From IMG/VR virus record IMGVR_UViG_2654587772_000002: a stretch of 64,000 nucleotides of DNA; one strand, 5' to 3'. Each line of letters opens with the position of its first letter. Position 1 is the stretch's first letter. The notes beneath the pieces were generated by a model, which searched no databases, was not told the origin of the DNA, and saw only the letters and a list, made by a program, of their open reading frames with translations. The translations under genes and the position numbers were made by a program. Positions 1,401 through 47,329 of this stretch are shown here, piece by piece. This DNA comes from a virus. Its lineage: Duplodnaviria; Heunggongvirae; Uroviricota; Caudoviricetes.

Positions 1401-3316
1401 GCCGCTACCCCCGCTTTCTGGATTGCTACCAGCAGATCAGCCAGGTGGCGAGCTGCGCCGTTAACCAGCTCTTCGTTTTCCTCAAAACGTCCGGCAGCCT
1501 GAAGGGCTGCAATCGCTTCCCGGACATTGCCCCGGGCGTTACGGATCTCCGCCATGTCAGTGCTTTGTATATCCATCACGTTATTGAGATATTCAATGGC
1601 TTTATTAGCCTCTGCATCTGCTTCGCTAACCGTTTCATCAGGCTGTGCCGGGGCCGGTTCTGGCTGAGTAATCTCACCGACTTCGGCCTGCAATGCATTG
1701 ATCATGCTCTGCACCATTTTCTCGGTGCCAGCGCCCCCAGGAAACGCAATATTGGGGAAAGTTTTTTGAAACTGAGTTTTCAGCATTACGCGGAACTCGT
1801 CTGGTGAGCTGGTGGCCAGCTCCAGAGCTTTTTGTGCATATTTGCCAAACGGACCATTAGTAAGTGTCTTCGCCAGGAAGTCGAAAGAATCCTCGCGAGG
1901 CAATAACTTCAGGTCGTACTCACTCATTTGCTGATCAGAAAGCGGGGTATCGTAAGTAGCAATGCCGTAGCGTGCATATTCATAATACGGGTCACCTTCA
2001 TCAGGGCGCGGCAGAATTGCTTTGTTACCTTCAGGTATTGCGCCAGGGGCCGCCGGACGCATTTGCAGGGCATATCGATATGCACCTACAGAGACTTCTG
2101 GTTCAGGCGAAGAGCTACCGGTATCCTCCGCTGGTTCAGGCTCGACGTTTTCCGGTTTATGTTCTTCTGGTTGGACCAGGTATTCCGATACATTACCCGC
2201 TTTATAGGCTTTAAACAGCTTGCCGATCGCATCTGCCATGTCCACACCCTGTATGGATTTAGCCTTGATCATGTATACGCTGCCATCCGGATCGGTTAAC
2301 TGGATATACCCTTCGCCGCCCCCAATGAATTGCTTCATTGATGCACCATTACTGAGCGTCACTTCCCCGTCCATATGCATACGATTTTTGATACTGGCAA
2401 GGCGATCCGTCAGCGCGCGAGAGTGCCCACCAGTCATCCCCGCTGGAGCAATGGTATCGCGCCCACCAGTGCGATTGAGCTGATCAATCTCCGTCTGCAA
2501 ACGCTCATTCTCTTCATAAAGAGAATCCGCTTCCGATGCAACAGCGTTAATTTTCTGCTCCAGATCTGCCTTCTGCCCTTCTACCGCTGCCACCTGATCC
2601 GCGAGGTCGCTCATGGCATCCTCTTTCTGGTCACTGTCAGCCTGTAGTTGGGTTATTTCATCAACAAGGGCTTTTTTCTTCTTCTGCGCACGCTGGAATT
2701 TTGCCGAGTTTTTCTCTGCAAGGTTGGCAAGTTTCATGGTGACCTGCGCCAGCGTCATATCACGTCCACTCATCGGAGCAACGGTGTGAGTAACGTCTTT
2801 TTTATTCAGTAAGAACTGGAAAGCAACCAGCGTATCGCTATTGGTGATCCGGTTTTCCGCTGTCGGGCTATGAAACAGAATGCTGATAGTCTGACCATCA
2901 CTGAGCGGAATAATGGCTGGCAGGACTGGCAGCCCGTTAACGTTACGTGCCCGGCCAATTTCAGCGCCGCCGATCGCGCGCGCGCCGCTCTGGGCCACAT
3001 CCCCCGTTTTATCACTCCCCGCAGAGATTCCGGTACCATTCAGCTTCTGGTTCAATGCCCGGACAAATGCCTGCATGGTCCGGTGTAACTGCAAACGAGT
3101 AGAACTAATCGCCTCCAATAAATCCGTAGCACACCAGTGGATCGGCGTGTCATAGAAGAACGTTGCCTCGATTTCCTCCAGGGTGTTGGATTCCGTCATC
3201 AGATAGCGGTCCTGACCAGCCATTAATGCGCGATATTCATCATCAGTCACCGGCGGGGGAAGCACGTCAAGCCCCGGCTTAATCGTCACCCCTTTATTGA
3301 TATTGAACTGTTCCAT
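1397..3316 (-). CDS. Large acidic coiled-coil protein (639 aa); possibly DarA-like virion antirestriction protein
   Basis: ORF track. Central coiled-coil with Q/E/K-rich heptads and acidic low-complexity segments. Shares a conserved block (TL..V......KNSAKFQ) with the adjacent 203-aa protein. Size and operon position match what I recall of P1 DarA; unverified. Confidence 0.6.
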   Translation of the reverse strand: MEQFNINKGVTIKPGLDVLPPPVTDDEYRALMAGQDRYLMTESNTLEEIEATFFYDTPIHWCATDLLEAISSTRLQLHRTMQAFVRALNQKLNGTGISAGSDKTGDVAQSGARAIGGAEIGRARNVNGLPVLPAIIPLSDGQTISILFHSPTAENRITNSDTLVAFQFLLNKKDVTHTVAPMSGRDMTLAQVTMKLANLAEKNSAKFQRAQKKKKALVDEITQLQADSDQKEDAMSDLADQVAAVEGQKADLEQKINAVASEADSLYEENERLQTEIDQLNRTGGRDTIAPAGMTGGHSRALTDRLASIKNRMHMDGEVTLSNGASMKQFIGGGEGYIQLTDPDGSVYMIKAKSIQGVDMADAIGKLFKAYKAGNVSEYLVQPEEHKPENVEPEPAEDTGSSSPEPEVSVGAYRYALQMRPAAPGAIPEGNKAILPRPDEGDPYYEYARYGIATYDTPLSDQQMSEYDLKLLPREDSFDFLAKTLTNGPFGKYAQKALELATSSPDEFRVMLKTQFQKTFPNIAFPGGAGTEKMVQSMINALQAEVGEITQPEPAPAQPDETVSEADAEANKAIEYLNNVMDIQSTDMAEIRNARGNVREAIAALQAAGRFEENEELVNGAARHLADLLVAIQKAGVAA

Positions 3317-4778: not shown

Positions 4779-5650
4779 GTGCGCCCAGCATGGGCGCGAT
4801 CTTGGAGGTGAAAGCCCTCCCGCGAGCTGACCACAGCGAGCGAAAGGAAGTGCAACTGCGTGAGGGCGGCTAGGCGTGGGGAGGAAGCACGGAATGAACC
4901 CGTGAGCCGATGAACAAGAATCGGATATGAGGCGCGATGGAGCAAGGCGAGCAGGCACATCACTGCGAAGCTTTCGTGACAAAGTCGCGTAGATCCGACG
5001 GTTGTGCGGGGAAGGATCGCGTTCTTACCTGGGGAGTTCTCGCCTCATGCCTGAAAGGGCAACGTCGTAAGACGGAGCGAGAAGTCAGCAGAGGCCGTAG
5101 TAGTCAGGACTCCGACGAAGGGCCGAACGAGAAGGAAAGCCAAAAGATATGACTCTTGACAGGACATTGCGTCAGAAGCCGGGGAAGCCCGGTACGGACC
5201 CGCATGCCGGGTGGTGTGGCAGGGGCGCAGCCTTGTGCTCCCCCCTATGCCGATCAAGCAGAACATTGTGCTGGGCCTCTGACGCATCTCCTTGATGGTC
5301 TTGGCATCGTGCTTAAGTGGATTGGTGTCGTCTCTGATAGGCTCATGGAGGCAGAATGAAACTCAAAAATCCGGGACAGCACGCAAAACAGGCTGCACAA
5401 AAAGCGCAGGTTGCGTAGGAGTGGAATCCCGCTCCCAAAAAATGGTGCAGAAGTTGCGGCAGTGGTCATCCGACGCACTGGAAAATAACAAACCCGCCGT
5501 GACCAGAATCGGAGGCCTGAGGGAGTGACCGTAAAACCGGATAACCCAGGCAGCAAATACCCGCTGGATGAGGCATGGTTCCGGCAGATAATACCGAAAA
5601 CCGCCAGACACACTGGATAATCAGTAGAAATAACCCATTAAAATCATTAT
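4779..5650 (+). mobile_element. GC-rich non-coding region with a group II intron-like 5' end (GUGCG plus first stem); possibly an ORF-less or degenerate intron; 3' boundary unknown
   Basis: GTGCGCCCAGCATGGGCGCG at about 4779 resembles the canonical group II 5' end and first domain I hairpin. An 8-bp hairpin (CCTCCACG...CGTGGAGG) lies just upstream. No long ORF on either strand and no reverse transcriptase. I could not identify a canonical domain V by eye. Confidence 0.3.
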
Positions 5651-26406: not shown

Positions 26407-26744
26407 CAGATCACCACTTCGTCAAACTGACACGAAAAATCGGTATAGGTGATATGTTCTGTCGCTGACCACGTTCGACACACCACTCTGATTTTTCTGT
26501 TAATACCCGGCGGGCGCCAAAAAAAAGATTTATAGCCTTCATGCCGGGCTAAAAATTTTTCAAATGAATCACGTTCATTCGCCTCAACTTTGAAATCACA
26601 GGTGAAAACGCGCAGAGAATGATTAAGTCCATTTGGACTTCGTTGCTCATAACCATCGCCAAATCTTACAGTTTTTATCGATGGTTTATTTTCTGTTTTC
26701 ATTCCATCCTCTGGTAACCAGTGAAATTCTTCCGTATTAGCCAC
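26406..26744 (-). CDS. M: Minor tail protein M
   Basis: VRFGDGY.QR.P.GLN... and C-terminal F.EVV match lambda gpM. Confidence 0.9.
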
Positions 26745-29700
26745 TTAACATTCCCCCATCACGTCGCATATTTAACAGATTGCCCTGCACCCGCTGATCA
26801 ACCATCCCCATAAGTGCTTTTATTGCCTGAGGGCCAATCTCTCCATTCTGGCCGTCATTTTGAATAGTGATTTGGTATACAGGGGCATAGGTAATATCTC
26901 CGCCTCCATTACCACTTTTACTATTAATAGCTCTGACACCAAGAGAACCATCGGAAGTTCGTGTTAATGGCATAATGGCTTCCGGACCAGCCTCACCAAA
27001 AACACCAGCCCCTCTTGCAAAAGCAAAAAATTGCGGGGAATCATAAATACCGTTCGAATACGTGTTCAATGACGGAGACTCATAAACACCGCCCTTTGCA
27101 TTCGGAATAAATTTACTAATAGCACTCCCGATAGTTCCTAAAATCCCCCCAGAAGAACTGTTACTAATGCTGTCGAAAATCCCAGTAATTGAAGCCTTTA
27201 ATGCTATTCGACTAAGATCCGAAATCACGGAAGTAGCGAAAGAACGAAAATTTGCCTTGCCTGTCGTGACAAAATCACCCAGCGCATCGGTCATTCCATC
27301 AAACATCTGAGTCGTGGTTGATTTTATCTGCTCACTGATATCCTTAGTGTCATCCAGCCAGTTATTGAATCCCTGGGAGGCACCACTAACCCAGTCTCCT
27401 GCCTGAATATCGAGCTGCTCGTTTTTCTGTCTGACAATTTCTTTTTCTCGTTCCAGAGCATCATTCAGAGCCTGCATTTTCTCCTGAAAAACATGATTTG
27501 ACATCCCACGGGATTTATCTGCATAGTCACGTTCAAGTTGCAGACGCTGATTGTTATATTCACGTTCAATCCGCAGTAATTCCTGCTGGCGTTGCTGATT
27601 TTTATCGCCAACCCCATAACCAGCAATCTGAATATCATACCCCTGTTGACGATTATCAATCGAAGCCTGCAATGAATCACGCCATGCAGCTATTTCGGCG
27701 GATTCCTTGATTAGCCTGTTATTTTTTTCAATCGCAACATTTTTCTCCATCAACGCGGTTATTTCTTCCAGGTGTAAGAGAAGCGATTTCTGATCCTGGG
27801 TTAATTTCGATGACGGTCGTGACTCCAGGTCGGCAATCTGCTGACGCCACTTAACCAGTTCCTGTTCAGAGGAACTTAATTTAACGGTTAATTCAGTTTG
27901 TGAACTTAGTAACGCATTCTGTTGATTCAGATGATCAATCATTCGTTGGGCAGCATCATCCGAATAACCTTTCGCCTTTGGTTGCTTTGGATCTTTATAA
28001 CGCTCATTTATTTGAGCGATAAAATTATTATATTCTTCCTTTGAATACTGACTCTTTAGCTTTTCCAGTTTTGCAAGTTCACTAGCTCTCTGCTGCTCCC
28101 GGGTCTGATATTGTTTTGAAAAGGCATCTGCTCTCTGTCTGAGTTCAATTCCTTCCTGTTGTCGCTTGTTGTAATCGTTTATTGATGAATTTAGGACGTC
28201 CTGAGCAATTTTTTCTGCTTGAAGTACGCCCAATTGCTGCTTTAATCGTGCCAGCCTTTTATTTTGAGCTCCGCCATCTCCAATGCCACCTAACCCGAAA
28301 ACTCCGGGTCGGGTATTTTTTTCTATTTCATCAATTTGACGGAGAACATCTGAGATTTTTTGATCAAGGGAGGCCTCACGGCCAATGTCCAGCATGGAAT
28401 CCCATGCCCATTTTGCGGAGTCTGCGACAGCTTTCCATGCAGTCTCAAGATAACCAAGATTTTCTTTAATCTGGTTGGTGCGCTGGATCATTGAGGATGA
28501 GTATTCTTCTGTCGCAATGCGGGCGGCCTCCTGCTGGTTCCCTTCATCCTGTAGCGCCTTAATCTGGTTATAAGTCGCAAGTGTCAGAAAATGGTACTGA
28601 TCATTAAGTTTTGATATGGCACTGACAGGATCCTTTGCAATTTCATTGAAGTCATTAACCAGTTGTTCGGTTGATATTCCTGTTACTTCGCTCGTTTTTA
28701 CTATCGCTGTCGTCACTTGCTCCAGCGAACTGCTCGCTACCTTTCCCGAACGCACAAGCTGATTTAATACTGCCGCCGCAGCACCAGTTGTCGAATCAGC
28801 CGCATTCCCGGCACGTTGAGCTATATCGCCCAATTGCCCGCTGGTTGTCCCCAACTGATTTCCGGTAAGAATAAGAGATTTATTAAATTCGTCCTGCTCC
28901 TGAGAGCCTTTATAGTAAGCCAGTCCTAAGACCCCAACGGCTGCTGCGGCCAGGGTAAAAGGATTAATTAATCCCAGCACATAAGAACCTACACCTTTGA
29001 TCGCCGGGCCAATCCCACCGAACATATCTTTTAGCTGGCCGCCCTGCTGCATTAACACCATAAATGGCGACTGACCAGTGGACAACCCAACAACAATATC
29101 CGTCATTTGTGCAGGCAACATGCGCATAGCAAAAGCCGTTTGTTTTGCCGACATTCCGGTTTTGCTTAATTGTGATTGAGTAACCTCAAGCTCACTCCGC
29201 ATAGCACGAAGTTTTCCAGAAAGCTCCTCATACATTTCAGGAGAAAGCATCCCCTTAGCTTTTGCTTCATTGAGCTGTTTCTGTTGTTCTACCAGACGAT
29301 TAAAAGCAGTTCCGACAGGATCAAGTTGAGCAATCAGACGTTGCAAAGCAACAACCTGTTCATCATGCGCTTTTGCTGCTTCTCGCTCTGCCTGAGCCTC
29401 TCCGGTAAGCTCTCGCCGTGTTTCCTGTATTTTTCGGCTATAATTCTCAAACTGAGAACCATTTATTTTCCCGGATGCAAACGCAGCATTAAGTTCATCA
29501 TGCTGTTGTTCAAGATTTCTTAGCGCCGCAGCCAGAGGGTCGATCTTGTCCAGCATTCTTTGAAAGGCCTGAGCCTGCGCTTCCTGCTGGGCGGCAGCAA
29601 GTTTTCCGGCCTTCTCGGCTTCTCTCTGCGCTTGCGCAACCCCGCTCAATTCCTCTGTGGTTTCATTAAGTTTACGGACAAGAAATTCATATTCTTCTTT

Positions 29701-29970
29701 ATCAATAAGCCCTTTATCGAAAAATTTCTTTAATTCAGAATAGCGTCGACCGACAGTATCAATTGCGGCACCAACTGGATCAATAGCTGCTTTTAATTTT
29801 GCGAGCGCGTTCTTCTCATCTTCTGTTGCCTTAGTCACTTTCCCTGCGCTATTTGCAGCAGTTTCCCCAGCCTGCGTCATTTTGACTAATGAGGAGGTCA
29901 GATTGTCAGCATTATTTTTCGCTCCAGTGCTATCAATAATTATTGCGAGACGCGAGGTTTGCTCTGCCAT
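26737..29970 (-). CDS. H: Tail tape measure protein (gpH-like, 1077 aa)
   Basis: Long coiled-coil N-terminal region and hydrophobic segments. Sits between GT and M as in lambda. Confidence 0.9.
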
Positions 29971-30135
29971 TTATTAAAACTCCTGACAACAAAAAACCCA
30001 CCGCGAAGTGGGTTTCAGGCGACATAATAGTAGATATAGCGATTACGAGGCCACGCAATGCTTTTCTCCAGGAGCATCATCGATTTAATTAAAGACACCA
30101 TCACATCTCTGTAACAGAGTGTACGTAATTAACAA

Positions 30136-30905
30136 CTACACACACTGCTCCTGAAAATACTGGTCATCCAGTGCAAAGATCACTGCTTCAAATTCATCGC
30201 GCTCAATCAATACCGGATGAGTGGCTAAATATTCATTTATCTCTGTCAGAGATAAAGGCAAAGGCACCCCAGCCATTCCAGCATAACGTCGGGCACGGGA
30301 TATTACCGAATAGGCGTACAACAACTCCTTAAGCACCGGGTCTATTTCTGGTTCCGGTATCGGTGGCAACCTGAGTTTTTCTCGCTTCCATCTTGCCTTT
30401 TCCCCCCTTTCTCCCCCGAACTCCGATAACCACCGCTGGGCAGCTATGGCTTTTTTATCGTATCCTGCTTCTGCTGCTCTTTACCCTGGGCGATGCTGGC
30501 TGCTTCTGCAAGGATCTGCCAGTACAACTCTGGATTCTGCTTAAGCAGCGCGATCCCTCGTTCTGCCGTATATTCCAGTGCAACCTCAACACCATTAACC
30601 AGTTCACCAACCCCTTTCCAGTCTTTCAGCAGATAACGAGCGGCATTATCAATGAGTAAATCATCAACAGAATCCACCTCGGAAACCTTTGAAATATCAA
30701 ACTCCTTCGTTCCGACGTGCAAACTGGCATCCATTTTCTCAATGTGGCGACGGATTAATGCATTACGGGAGCGATACTGATCGTTATCGCTGCTTGCCAC
30801 CAACAGTTTTAACCCGTCTACAGGTTTTAAGTCCTTCATTGGCGTAAACCAGCGTTCTCCACCAATGATAATTTTCTGATTAAGAATAAACATCCATAAC
30901 CTCAT
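30136..30905 (-). CDS. Tail assembly chaperone GT, the product of a programmed -1 frameshift from G into the downstream frame
   Basis: The 77-aa ORF (30136-30369) is in the -1 frame relative to G. That frame is open upstream through the G stop. The heptamer A AAA AAG (coding strand, about 30450-30456) sits 2 codons before the G stop. Confidence 0.7.
30444..30905 (-). CDS. G: Tail assembly chaperone G
   Basis: Position between the major tail gene and the tape measure gene. Ends ...QQKQDTIKKP, with a slippery A-AAA-AAG at its 3' end. Confidence 0.8.
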   Translation of the reverse strand: MRLWMFILNQKIIIGGERWFTPMKDLKPVDGLKLLVASSDNDQYRSRNALIRRHIEKMDASLHVGTKEFDISKVSEVDSVDDLLIDNAARYLLKDWKGVGELVNGVEVALEYTAERGIALLKQNPELYWQILAEAASIAQGKEQQKQDTIKKP

Positions 30906-30953: not shown

Positions 30954-31916
30954 TCAACTAATCGCCTCAGCACTGGCTTTTGCGATCACGGCAGCCGGGG
31001 AATTTTTTTTTCTGGTTATCGTAGGTGCTTCATCTGCTGCGGTAATGCTCAATTGAACCTGGATAATGTCGCTATTACCCCCATCAGGCCATTCACCTGA
31101 CACCTGAACCTTCGGGAAACTGAAAGTGTATGCCCCCTCTCCATTCGAAAGCGTGAAGCTGAACGGAACTGTTTCTCCAGTCAGTGTTTTACTCCAGATT
31201 TCCCACGCGGCTTTAGACCATGAAAGCGTCACCGTACCGGACGGTGTAAAAGTAGTCGGAATATTTGCTCCTGCATAAGGCGAGCCAGTCCCGATACAAC
31301 GCTGTGTCTGGAGTTTGTTATCGAACTGAATATCAAAACTGTCGATACAAAAACCGTTACCTCCGGCAACACCATTCAGGCTTACTGCTGAAACCTCCTT
31401 AAACGAATAACGTAGCTTTCCTGCACTATCCACAGGTTCGCCTTTGATAAAATTCGTATCATCGGCCTTTGATTCCCAGTCCAGTCCGGCAAAGGTTACG
31501 GTCGCTGTAATATCGCCGTCGTTAGGGATCTGCATTTTCCATGAGCCAACCTGCGCTCCTCTGACGACAGAGGCAATTCCGACATCGGACGCATAGGTCG
31601 CCAGAGAAAATGTTATTCGCTCATTCCCCATTGTCAGAGAATCGCCTGACCATTCCGCGCCGAAACAGGATGCAAGAAAATCATCATGTTGACCCCAGCG
31701 AAATTTGGTACCAACATCACCGCCGACATCCACAGTGCCAGGCGTCGCCCCCTGAGCCATCCGGGAGCCACCAATCTCATTATTTTCGCCTTTATTATGG
31801 GTGGGTTTTACTCCCCAGCTTGTGCGTTTTAATAAACTCCAGTCACCACTTGCTGGCGTAGTGCCTGCAACCGTCTCCCGGATAAATGCCGAGATAACCT
31901 TTGCACCTGAACTCAC
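30954..31916 (-). CDS. Major tail protein (gpV-like)
   Basis: Position immediately upstream of G/GT. 320 aa, Gly/Thr/Ser-rich beta-type composition. Confidence 0.75.
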   Translation of the reverse strand: MSSGAKVISAFIRETVAGTTPASGDWSLLKRTSWGVKPTHNKGENNEIGGSRMAQGATPGTVDVGGDVGTKFRWGQHDDFLASCFGAEWSGDSLTMGNERITFSLATYASDVGIASVVRGAQVGSWKMQIPNDGDITATVTFAGLDWESKADDTNFIKGEPVDSAGKLRYSFKEVSAVSLNGVAGGNGFCIDSFDIQFDNKLQTQRCIGTGSPYAGANIPTTFTPSGTVTLSWSKAAWEIWSKTLTGETVPFSFTLSNGEGAYTFSFPKVQVSGEWPDGGNSDIIQVQLSITAADEAPTITRKKNSPAAVIAKASAEAIS

Positions 31917-46800: not shown

Positions 46801-47329
46801 ACAGCGAATCAGATCAAATAAAACGCACATTTGTTAACATTTACACAAAGTCTGCGTGGGATATTCTGAAAGAATATCCATAATGTGGAGAGAATCTATT
46901 GAAGTGCATGGTGCCGGGTGCCTCCCGGTGAACAAAATGTTCGTGATACCTGTCGGCGACAGAAAAGGTTAATGGTATCACCCCACCGCACAGGGGGATT
47001 CACCATGCAGGAGTTTTCTTAGCAAACTCACTGCGCGCCCGGCAACTCCCAACCACATAAAATGCGGAGTTTGTGGTATTTATGCATATAACTCGCAGGA
47101 ATTATCTTAAAAAACTGATGTCGATCCGGATTAAAAAGAAGCAGGTCATCATCAGATGACTGGAAAAAAGGAAAACAAAAAATACTCATCATACAGTTTT
47201 GATTGCAGGGATGAGCCTGCTATGCACAATATGCAGAATATAAGCAAGATAAAAATATGCAGGCATATTATTTCGGATTTTGTTATTAACACAACCTTTT
47301 TAATAATCATTTGGCATACAATAAACCAG

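What the first reader, a model, noticed from the sequence alone, without database searches (positions are those of the whole stretch)
30136..30460. Programmed -1 frameshift site (A AAA AAG) joining the G and T frames
The T-like ORF lies in the -1 frame relative to G and that frame is open across the G stop. The heptamer A AAA AAG, the dnaX-type slippery sequence, sits two codons before the G stop. A -1 slip there yields a G-T fusion, the conserved tail assembly chaperone mechanism. The listed 77-aa T ORF begins at a TTG only because the true product initiates at the G start.
Basis: seen in the sequence. Interest (0 to 1): 0.4.

Follow-up and report, generated by a model that had tools for sequence, protein, structure and literature searches.

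The report
Phage tail chaperone G/GT frameshift site

Summary
The genes lie on the minus strand. Gene G (30893..30444) sits between the tail tube gene and the tape measure gene. It ends ATA AAA AAG CCA TAG. The heptamer A AAA AAG (30456..30450) is in X XXY YYZ phase. The -1 frame is open from 30480 to the stop at 30136. A slip would give a 252-aa fusion, ...DTIKK|AIAAQRW....

Comparative evidence is strong.
- T is in the -1 frame in 105 of 108 related loci. The three exceptions are N or indel artefacts.
- Of 58 distinct haplotypes, 56 carry A AAA AAG (51) or G GGA AAG (5) at the same junction.
- The junction AAG (Lys) is invariant, even in Pseudomonas and Acinetobacter phages 24-31% identical to this fusion.
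- Third-position substitution bias switches from the G frame to the T frame exactly at the heptamer. This covers the 81 nt upstream of the listed TTG.
- None of the three T start codons chosen by ORF listing or annotators is conserved.
- No conserved downstream RNA structure exists, so the site resembles lambda G/GT rather than dnaX.

It is a new, unannotated member of a textbook mechanism. Interest is low. Product and efficiency were not measured.

The parts
30444..30893 (-). Gene G (tail assembly chaperone, 149 aa plus TAG stop). RefSeq calls a truncated 119-aa version 'ydaY'. The mechanical ORF list starts it at ATG 30905 (153 aa).
   Evidence: PHROG 313 'tail assembly chaperone', E 4.9e-46. 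The N-terminus MFILNQ aligns with homologue starts. GAGG lies 6 nt upstream of ATG 30893. Annotation comparison.
30450..30456 (-). Slippery heptamer A AAA AAG in X XXY YYZ phase. This is the proposed site of the tandem -1 tRNA-Lys slip.
   Evidence: Phase shown. The same junction carries A AAA AAG in 51 and G GGA AAG in 5 of 58 distinct haplotypes. The junction Lys K148 is invariant in alignment A2.
30444..30446 (-). G zero-frame stop codon TAG, one sense codon (CCA) after the heptamer.
   Evidence: Its distance from the heptamer varies in relatives (0, 3, 21 or more than 200 nt), so it is not a conserved part of the signal.
30444..30480 (-). The 37-nt G/T overlap: the only stretch where both the zero frame and the -1 frame are open. 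It contains a single in-phase slippery heptamer.
   Evidence: WIN row: -1 frame open from locus position 1521, which is window 30480.
30136..30450 (-). T segment decoded after the slip (104 aa plus stop, AIAAQRW...QEQCV*). The first 81 nt (30450..30370) have no ATG/GTG/TTG but are under coding constraint.
   Evidence: Translation. Wobble-position bias in the T frame from nt +1 after the junction. PHROG 1189 and PHROG 313 matches to this part. Weak Pfam Phage_TAC_18 match, E 0.003, below cutoff.
30954..31916 (-). Tail tube (major tail) protein gene, immediately upstream of G.
   Evidence: Pfam Phage_tube_2, E 7e-31. RefSeq 'phage tail tube protein'.
26737..29970 (-). Tape measure protein gene (1077 aa), downstream of T.
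   Evidence: Pfam TMP_2 E 1.4e-81, Tape_meas_lam_C E 3.9e-26. PHROG 24.

Best explanation
This is a programmed -1 ribosomal frameshift in the tail assembly chaperone gene pair of a lambdoid, Rac-related siphovirus prophage.

Proposed mechanism:
1. All ribosomes start at the G start codon (ATG 30893).
2. Most terminate at TAG 30446..30444 and release the 149-aa G protein.
3. A minority slip one base backwards on A AAA AAG (30456..30450) while decoding AAA AAG with tRNA-Lys in the P and A sites. They re-pair on AAA AAA.
4. These ribosomes continue in the -1 frame to the stop ending at 30136 and make a 252-aa G-T fusion (...DTIKK-AIAAQRW...).

By analogy with lambda gpG/gpGT, many G molecules and a few GT molecules would coat the tape measure protein, and the T domain would recruit the tail tube protein. 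Neither protein would end up in the virion.

Shown here: gene order, frames, heptamer phase, conservation of the slip site, coding constraint across the junction, and the lack of a conserved T start.

Inferred, not shown: that the fusion is made, its efficiency (probably a few per cent), and its binding partners.
For: 1. Anatomy. The heptamer is in phase, the -1 frame is open, and there is no stop before T.

2. Synteny. The order is tube gene, G, T, tape measure gene.

3. Family match. The fusion matches PHROG 313 'tail assembly chaperone' across 20-246 of 258 profile positions. The score is 174 bits for the fusion against 158 for G alone.

4. An annotated relative. Acinetobacter phage vB_AbaS_TRS1 is annotated with a two-piece joined tail assembly chaperone CDS. 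Its slip site G GGA AAG falls in the same alignment column.

5. Frame relationship. T is -1 relative to G in 105 of 108 loci from Escherichia, Shigella, Citrobacter, Klebsiella, Raoultella, Siccibacter, Pectobacterium, Serratia, Pantoea, Tatumella, Erwinia and Pseudomonas. The 3 exceptions carry an N or a homopolymer indel, and their junction itself is intact. G was not detectable for 3 further loci (Acinetobacter).

6. Slip-site conservation. 56 of 58 distinct haplotypes have A AAA AAG or G GGA AAG at the junction. Switching between these two heptamers changes the encoded residues (I/V-K-K versus V-G-K) but keeps the site slippery. Both are named as highly shift-prone in E. coli in the review PMC5009743.

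7. Coding constraint. Substitution diversity by codon position is 0.11/0.08/0.29 in the G frame just upstream of the junction. It is 0.20/0.15/0.39 in the T frame immediately downstream, including the start-less 81 nt.

8. No stable T start. The ORF listing and two annotators chose three different starts (TTG 30369, GTG 30336, TTG 30321), and none is conserved.

9. Likely a working tail module. The region is 100% identical in the deposited genome of Salmonella phage SPF_0923, 98.1% identical in 9 deposited Escherichia phage records, and present in 1074 of 5426 complete E. coli genomes.
Against: - No protein-level evidence exists. The exact fusion sequence is absent from a 15-billion-protein collection, and no public record of this prophage annotates slippage.
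- No stimulatory RNA structure was found. The local fold has z = +0.42. The consensus fold is -2.15 kcal/mol with no covarying pairs. Efficiency is therefore unknown and could be low. This does not argue against the mechanism, because, from my own recollection of Levin et al. 1993, lambda G/GT needs no such structure either.
- A few relatives lack a canonical heptamer: Erwinia C GCA AAG, Pectobacterium G GGG AAG, Pseudomonas G GAA AAG. A tandem slip is therefore not strictly required across the whole family.
- The Pfam Phage_TAC_18 match is below its cutoff.
Confidence: 0.9

Rival explanations
1. T is a separate gene translated from its own start codon (TTG 30369, GTG 30336 or TTG 30321). The heptamer is incidental and no fusion is made.
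For: Gene callers do annotate a stand-alone T ORF of 61-77 aa. AAGGAG lies just upstream of the TTG at 30321.
Against: - The three candidate starts disagree with each other, and each is replaced by non-start codons (CTC, GTT, CTT and others) in 25-28 of 58 haplotypes.
- The 81 nt upstream of the first candidate start carry T-frame coding constraint and a conserved peptide, AI(A/E)AQ(R/K)WL(S/K)EF...EKA(R/K)W(K/R)REKL.
- That stretch contains no ATG, GTG or TTG.
- AAGGAG abuts the TTG pair, leaving only 0-3 nt of spacing, which is too short for initiation (sequence).
Confidence: 0.04
2. The fusion arises by transcriptional slippage. RNA polymerase adds one extra A in the A6 run, giving an mRNA that encodes the same ...IKKAIAAQ... 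protein without any ribosomal slip.
For: The run is a homopolymer. An inserted A would give an identical protein, so the product alone cannot distinguish the two routes (inference from the sequence).
Against: - The run is only 6 A. Programmed transcriptional realignment is reported for A runs with n > 7 (PMC3711429).
- Relatives keep the same junction with G GGA AAG, C GCA AAG or G GAA AAG. These have only 3-4 A yet preserve the -1 organisation.
- What is invariant is an in-phase AAG Lys codon, which is a translational feature, not a run length.
Confidence: 0.04
3. G and T are the two halves of a single gene broken by a frameshift mutation or a sequencing error. The heptamer would be a chance homopolymer.
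For: Homopolymer indels do occur in this region in some assemblies. Examples are the G-run in L032, an N in L033, and several garbled Logan-derived proteins.
Against: - The identical arrangement is present in 1074 complete E. coli genomes.
- It is kept, with the -1 offset, across at least 12 genera down to about 24-31% protein identity.
- G always retains its own stop, and both frames stay under purifying selection.
Confidence: 0.02

Closest known systems
Bacteriophage lambda gpG / gpGT tail assembly chaperones (Levin, Hendrix & Casjens 1993; Xu, Hendrix & Duda 2004, 2013, 2014; summarised in PMC5009743)
   Same: - Two overlapping ORFs lie between the major tail gene and the tape measure gene.
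- The downstream ORF is in the -1 frame and has no start of its own.
- The slip occurs on a heptamer ending in A AAG, decoded by tRNA-Lys.
- No conserved downstream RNA stimulator was found here. From my own recollection of Levin et al. 1993, lambda also needs none.
- Several relatives use lambda's own heptamer G GGA AAG at the same junction.
   Different: - The heptamer here is A AAA AAG, not G GGA AAG.
- The overlap is only 37 nt, and the G stop lies one codon after the site.
- No sequence similarity to lambda G/T was detected. The only family links are PHROG 313 and a sub-threshold Pfam Phage_TAC_18 match.
- The ratio of about 30:1 and the binding partners known for lambda are untested here.
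Acinetobacter phage vB_AbaS_TRS1 tail assembly chaperone (NC_031098, TRS1_18/TRS1_19, annotated as a joined CDS)
   Same: It is a detectable homologue. The T part is 36-39% identical by tblastn, and the whole fusion is 25% identical in alignment A2. It has the same gene order, and its slip site falls in the same alignment column at the invariant Lys.
   Different: It uses G GGA AAG, and its zero-frame G continues 78 nt past the site. Its frameshift is annotated, whereas the one in this window is not.
E. coli dnaX tau/gamma frameshift
   Same: The heptamer A AAA AAG is identical, and the same tRNA-Lys tandem slip applies (PMC3711429).
   Different: - dnaX has an upstream Shine-Dalgarno-like stimulator and a downstream hairpin, and shifts at about 50%.
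- Here no downstream hairpin is conserved.
- The only SD-like element (AGGA, 6 nt upstream) is codon-derived and absent in several relatives.
- In dnaX the shifted product is the shorter one; here it is the longer one.
HK97-type tail assembly chaperone cluster tested by Antonov et al. 2013 (PMC3711429)
   Same: It is the same functional class. Measured frameshift efficiencies of 6-7% give a plausible range for this site.

Membership tests
Tailed-phage G/GT tail assembly chaperone with programmed -1 frameshift (lambda type) | Two ORFs located between the major tail (tube) gene and the tape measure gene | tested here: met
   Tube gene 30954..31916(-), G 30444..30893(-), T to 30136(-), tape measure gene 26737..29970(-).
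Tailed-phage G/GT tail assembly chaperone with programmed -1 frameshift (lambda type) | The downstream ORF overlaps the end of the upstream ORF in the -1 frame | tested here: met
   The -1 frame is open from 30480, giving a 37-nt overlap. The -1 relation holds in 105 of 108 related loci.
Tailed-phage G/GT tail assembly chaperone with programmed -1 frameshift (lambda type) | An in-phase slippery heptamer X XXY YYZ lies within the overlap | tested here: met
   A AAA AAG at 30456..30450, phase 2 relative to G. It is the only in-phase heptamer in the overlap.
Tailed-phage G/GT tail assembly chaperone with programmed -1 frameshift (lambda type) | The slip site and the two-frame organisation are conserved among diverged relatives | tested here: met
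   56 of 58 haplotypes carry A AAA AAG or G GGA AAG at the same column. The junction Lys is invariant down to 24% identity.
Tailed-phage G/GT tail assembly chaperone with programmed -1 frameshift (lambda type) | The downstream ORF lacks its own functional start, and coding constraint runs up to the slip site | tested here: met
   There is no ATG/GTG/TTG in the first 81 nt after the site. The wobble bias switches frame at the junction. Candidate starts are not conserved.
Tailed-phage G/GT tail assembly chaperone with programmed -1 frameshift (lambda type) | Sequence membership in a curated tail assembly chaperone family | tested here: inconclusive
   PHROG 313 'tail assembly chaperone' matches at E 4.9e-46 (G) and 8.2e-51 (fusion). 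The only match in the Pfam copy searched is Phage_TAC_18 at 18 bits, below its cutoff of 27. There is no NCBIfam match. Database homologues carry a precomputed PF27119 domain whose name I could not look up.
Tailed-phage G/GT tail assembly chaperone with programmed -1 frameshift (lambda type) | G has the tail assembly chaperone fold (HK97 chaperone, PDB 2OB9) | tested here: inconclusive
Tailed-phage G/GT tail assembly chaperone with programmed -1 frameshift (lambda type) | A minor fusion product is made at a few per cent and is required for tail assembly; G binds the tape measure protein and T binds the tube protein | not testable with these tools
   This needs a reporter assay, mass spectrometry and genetics. 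Expectations come from lambda (30:1) and measured tail assembly chaperone sites (6-7%).
dnaX-type frameshift cassette (heptamer plus two stimulators) | Heptamer A AAA AAG | tested here: met
   and for the dnaX signal.
dnaX-type frameshift cassette (heptamer plus two stimulators) | Downstream stem-loop stimulator | tested here: not met
   The 101-nt fold has z = +0.42, and 135 of 200 shuffles fold at least as well. RNAalifold on 12 diverse relatives gives -2.15 kcal/mol and 0 compensatory pairs.
dnaX-type frameshift cassette (heptamer plus two stimulators) | Upstream Shine-Dalgarno-like stimulator at the appropriate spacing | tested here: inconclusive
   AGGA ends 6 nt before the heptamer here and in many enteric relatives. 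It is formed by the Gln-Asp/Glu codons and is absent in the Flyfo, Siccibacter, Serratia, Pectobacterium, Erwinia and one Pantoea sequences. Its functional effect is untested.

The most novel reading that the evidence does not exclude
The family-wide invariant is only an in-phase A AAG (Lys) at the junction. The P-site half of the heptamer is dispensable in some members: Erwinia C GCA AAG followed directly by UAA, Pseudomonas G GAA AAG, Pectobacterium G GGG AAG. The most novel reading not excluded is that this chaperone family can frameshift by single-tRNA-Lys A-site slippage. I recall this mechanism being reported for Bacillus subtilis cdd at CGA AAG. Under this reading the adjacent zero-frame stop and the upstream AGGA would act as tunable stimulators. 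The G:GT ratio would then differ markedly between relatives, and in this E. coli prophage could be far from lambda's 30:1.
Probability: 0.12. Interest if true: 0.3.

Novelty: new member of a known kind. Interest (0 to 1): 0.15.

Why it matters
The main value is for annotation. This tail module is present in about a fifth of complete E. coli genomes (1074 of 5426), yet the records inspected (one RefSeq E. coli genome and two phage records), and the feature labels listed for the other hits, handle it poorly:
- RefSeq labels G 'ydaY' and, in the genome inspected, starts it 30 codons late.
- T is called 'hypothetical protein' or left out.
- None of these records shows a ribosomal-slippage join.
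- The exact fusion protein is absent from a 15-billion-sequence collection.

Recognising the G/GT pair gives correct names to two genes and adds one missing protein.

The comparative series is a clean natural illustration that selection keeps the site slippery rather than keeping the peptide. It comprises A AAA AAG, G GGA AAG and a few degenerate A AAG sites, all at one invariant Lys.

No new biology is implied.

Tried and rejected
- **Downstream stimulatory structure.** I folded 101 nt around the site and ran RNAalifold on 12 diverse relatives. Nothing exceeded shuffles and no pairs covaried, so I rejected it.
- **Curated family or solved-structure relatives by sequence.** There was no NCBIfam hit. 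The only PDB sequence hit was a spurious histone match at E 0.45. Pfam gave only a sub-threshold Phage_TAC_18 match.
- **Distant locus search.** A genome-contig search with the 7-member alignment A2 failed because no conserved block was available. I redid it with the 4 enteric members.
- **High E-value loci.** Some IMG/VR loci had E-values around 1e-140, and I suspected in-frame G-T fusions. The two loci where T scored in the G frame (L032, L033) turned out to carry a G-run indel and an N, with intact junctions.
- **P0016.** This looked like an annotated fusion protein. It is actually a deletion between two GCAGAAGCAG repeats, not a slippage annotation.
- **Literature.** A search for ydaY plus frameshift found nothing relevant.
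- **Bare heptamer significance.** It is not significant on its own: 31 observed against 19 expected in the window.

Full report
**What is in the sequence**

The relevant genes are on the minus strand. An ORF that I call G runs from ATG 30893 to TAG 30446..30444. The ORF list gives an upstream ATG at 30905. I prefer 30893 because homologues begin at MFILNQ/MLII/MFVI and a GAGG lies 6 nt before it.

Its last codons are CAG GAT ACG ATA AAA AAG CCA TAG. The heptamer AAAAAAG occupies 30456..30450. It begins on the third base of the ATA codon, so it has the X XXY YYZ phase needed for a tandem -1 slip.

The -1 frame is open from 30480 to the stop ending at 30136, which is 114 codons. It contains no stop between the heptamer and the TTG (30369) where the mechanical ORF list starts 'T'. 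A slip would give MFILNQ...QQKQDTIKK|AIAAQRWLSEFGG...QEQCV, made of 148 + 104 = 252 aa.

**Is it more than chance?**

The bare heptamer is not rare. The window holds 31 copies on both strands, against about 19 expected. From that rate I estimate p of about 0.003 for finding it on the right strand and in the right phase within the 37-nt overlap. The decisive evidence is comparative and is described below.

**Context**

- Immediately upstream is a tail tube gene (30954..31916, Pfam Phage_tube_2, E 7e-31).
- Downstream is a 1077-aa tape measure gene (26737..29970; TMP_2 E 1.4e-81, Tape_meas_lam_C E 3.9e-26).
- G matches PHROG 313 'tail assembly chaperone' at E 4.9e-46.
- The conceptual fusion matches the same 258-position profile over positions 20-246 with a higher score (E 8.2e-51). 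The PHROG family therefore already contains full-length fused members.
- The 1.1-kb region is 100% identical in the deposited genome of Salmonella phage SPF_0923 and 98.1% identical in nine deposited Escherichia phage records (vB_EcoS-...).
- It is present in 1074 of 5426 complete E. coli genomes. It is a common Rac-related prophage tail module.
- RefSeq names G 'ydaY' and, in the one genome whose annotation I inspected, starts it 30 codons late (119 aa). T is 'hypothetical protein' or unannotated. No slippage is annotated in the records inspected.

**Comparative test**

A tblastn search with the fusion against phage genomes found homologues in two differently framed pieces. They occur in Klebsiella (about 65% identity), Flyfo siphovirus, Erwinia (55%), Pseudomonas syringae phages (about 32%) and Acinetobacter phages (about 31-33% over the matched part). 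One of these, vB_AbaS_TRS1, is annotated with a two-piece joined tail assembly chaperone CDS.

I added 18 loci from bacterial genomes and 80 from IMG/VR, for 111 loci in all.

- T was in the -1 frame relative to G in 105 of the 108 loci where both parts were detected.
- The three exceptions carry an N or a homopolymer indel elsewhere, and their junctions are intact.
- Among 58 distinct 460-nt haplotypes, the junction heptamer is A AAA AAG in 51, G GGA AAG in 5, C GCA AAG in 1 (Erwinia) and G GGG AAG in 1 (Pectobacterium).
- The Pseudomonas phages have G GAA AAG.
- In protein alignments, the last zero-frame residue before the shift is an invariant Lys (K148), even in Acinetobacter and Pseudomonas members only 24-31% identical.

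Interchange of A AAA AAG and G GGA AAG changes the peptide (I/V-K-K versus V-G-K) but keeps a heptamer described as highly shift-prone in E. coli (PMC5009743). That is the signature of selection on slipperiness rather than on the peptide.

**Coding constraint across the junction**

I measured column diversity by codon position in the 58-haplotype alignment.

- In the 50 nt before the site, diversity is 0.11/0.08/0.29 for G-frame positions 1/2/3.
- In nt +1..+43 after the site, it is 0.20/0.15/0.39 for T-frame positions 1/2/3.
- In nt +43..+85, it is 0.19/0.17/0.41 in the T frame.

The wobble position therefore changes frame exactly at the heptamer. The T frame is protein-coding through the 81 nt that precede the listed TTG, and that stretch contains no ATG, GTG or TTG.

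The ORF list, RefSeq and the phage record each chose a different T start (TTG 30369, GTG 30336, TTG 30321). Each is replaced by non-start codons in 25-28 of the 58 haplotypes. Independent initiation of T is therefore very unlikely.

**Stimulators**

- The region around and downstream of the site folds no better than shuffled sequence (z = +0.42).
- RNAalifold on 12 diverse relatives gives -2.15 kcal/mol with no compensatory pairs.
- The zero-frame stop lies 3 nt after the heptamer here, but 0, 21 or more than 200 nt away in relatives.
- An AGGA 6 nt upstream is formed by the Gln-Asp/Glu codons and is missing in several relatives.

The site therefore shares only its heptamer with dnaX. It otherwise resembles the stimulator-free, low-efficiency lambda G/GT site.

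**Rivals**

- Transcriptional slippage would yield the same protein. However, the run is only A6, whereas programmed realignment is reported for runs longer than 7. Relatives with G GGA AAG or C GCA AAG also keep the same organisation.
- A broken gene or sequencing error is excluded by the number of independent genomes and by conservation over at least 12 genera.

**Membership checks that were weak**

- Pfam gave only a sub-threshold Phage_TAC_18 match to the T part (18 bits against a cutoff of 27).
- There was no NCBIfam model and no solved-structure relative by sequence.
- The exact fusion sequence is not in the 15-billion-protein collection, and G relatives there are 'hypothetical protein'.

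**Conclusion**

This is a genuine but ordinary instance of the conserved G/GT tail assembly chaperone -1 frameshift (lambda: Levin et al. 1993; Xu et al. 2004; review PMC5009743). It uses A AAA AAG and is not annotated in the public records of this prophage that I inspected.

What remains inferred: production and abundance of the fusion (probably a few per cent; compare 30:1 in lambda and 6-7% for tested tail assembly chaperone sites), and the binding roles of the G and T parts.

Noticed in passing
window 30444..30893(-) and 30136..30369(-); L001 3198..3557: In the genome inspected (L73), RefSeq/PGAP names G 'ydaY' and starts it 30 codons late (119 aa instead of 149). This seems to copy the truncated Rac-prophage remnant, which is my inference. 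T is 'hypothetical protein' in some of the listed genomes and missing in others. No ribosomal-slippage join is shown in the records inspected. 1074 complete E. coli genomes carry the region.
   Followed up: partly
P0016 (E. coli NB16F79_39920); corresponds to window ~30470..30510(-): A 240-aa database protein (cluster of 5 member sequences) is a constitutive in-frame G-T fusion (...QILAEA|GYDKKAIAAQ...). It apparently arose by a deletion between two GCAGAAGCAG direct repeats just upstream of the heptamer. Such a prophage would make GT only and no G. By analogy with lambda, that should impair tail assembly.
   Followed up: partly
L004 1980..1995 (Erwinia phage Gungnir39); L005/L008/L009 ~1885..1895 (Pseudomonas phiPSA1-like phages); L024 (Pectobacterium): These relatives keep the -1 G/T organisation and the junction Lys but lack a canonical heptamer. 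They have GTC GCA AAG TAA, CTG GAA AAG CCA and GTG GGG AAG TCG respectively. This suggests that single-tRNA-Lys slippage on A AAG may suffice in some members.
   Followed up: partly
L093-L099 (IMG/VR E. coli-like prophages), junction region; P0021 (Salmonella Brandenburg, 183 aa): In these variants the G stop after the heptamer is lost (CCA TAG becomes CCA TTG in the IMG/VR loci). The zero-frame G then runs on for up to about 70 extra codons through the T region in the wrong frame. The heptamer is retained.
   Followed up: no
L016-L019, L087-L091, L102-L106 and others, ~40 nt upstream of the junction; window 30483..30489(-) equivalent: Some relatives have a second in-phase heptamer, G GGA AAA (Gln-Gly-Lys), in a stretch where their -1 frame is already open. 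In this window the same codons read CAG GGT AAA, which creates the -1 frame TAA that closes the frame. Only one slip site is therefore possible here.
   Followed up: no
window 29993..30016(-): A strong intrinsic-terminator-like hairpin (10-bp stem, GAAACCCACTTCGCGGTGGGTTTT followed by further T-rich sequence, TTGTTG) sits in the 165-nt gap between the T stop and the tape measure gene start. This is in the middle of what should be a late operon. Relatives have extra small ORFs inserted at this position (Klebsiella and Pseudomonas phages).
   Followed up: no
P0054 (E. coli, 246 aa, 18 contigs): This chimeric protein joins a ParB N-terminal domain to the C-terminal ~105 residues of G. It probably marks a deletion or recombination junction in a degraded copy of this prophage.
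   Followed up: no
window 4860..5123(+): Rfam hits to group II intron domains D1-D4 (RF02001 at 95.5 bits; RF01998 at 46.8 bits). They are unrelated to the finding.
   Followed up: no
window 46852..47038(-): Full-length match to the gammaproteobacterial sRNA family STnc100 (RF02076, 86.6 bits).
   Followed up: no
window 30402..30407(-); L032 ~1985: A G6 run lies inside the T coding region. It is G5 in one IMG/VR contig, which throws the rest of T out of frame. This is probably a homopolymer sequencing error, but it could be a real inactivating indel.
   Followed up: partly
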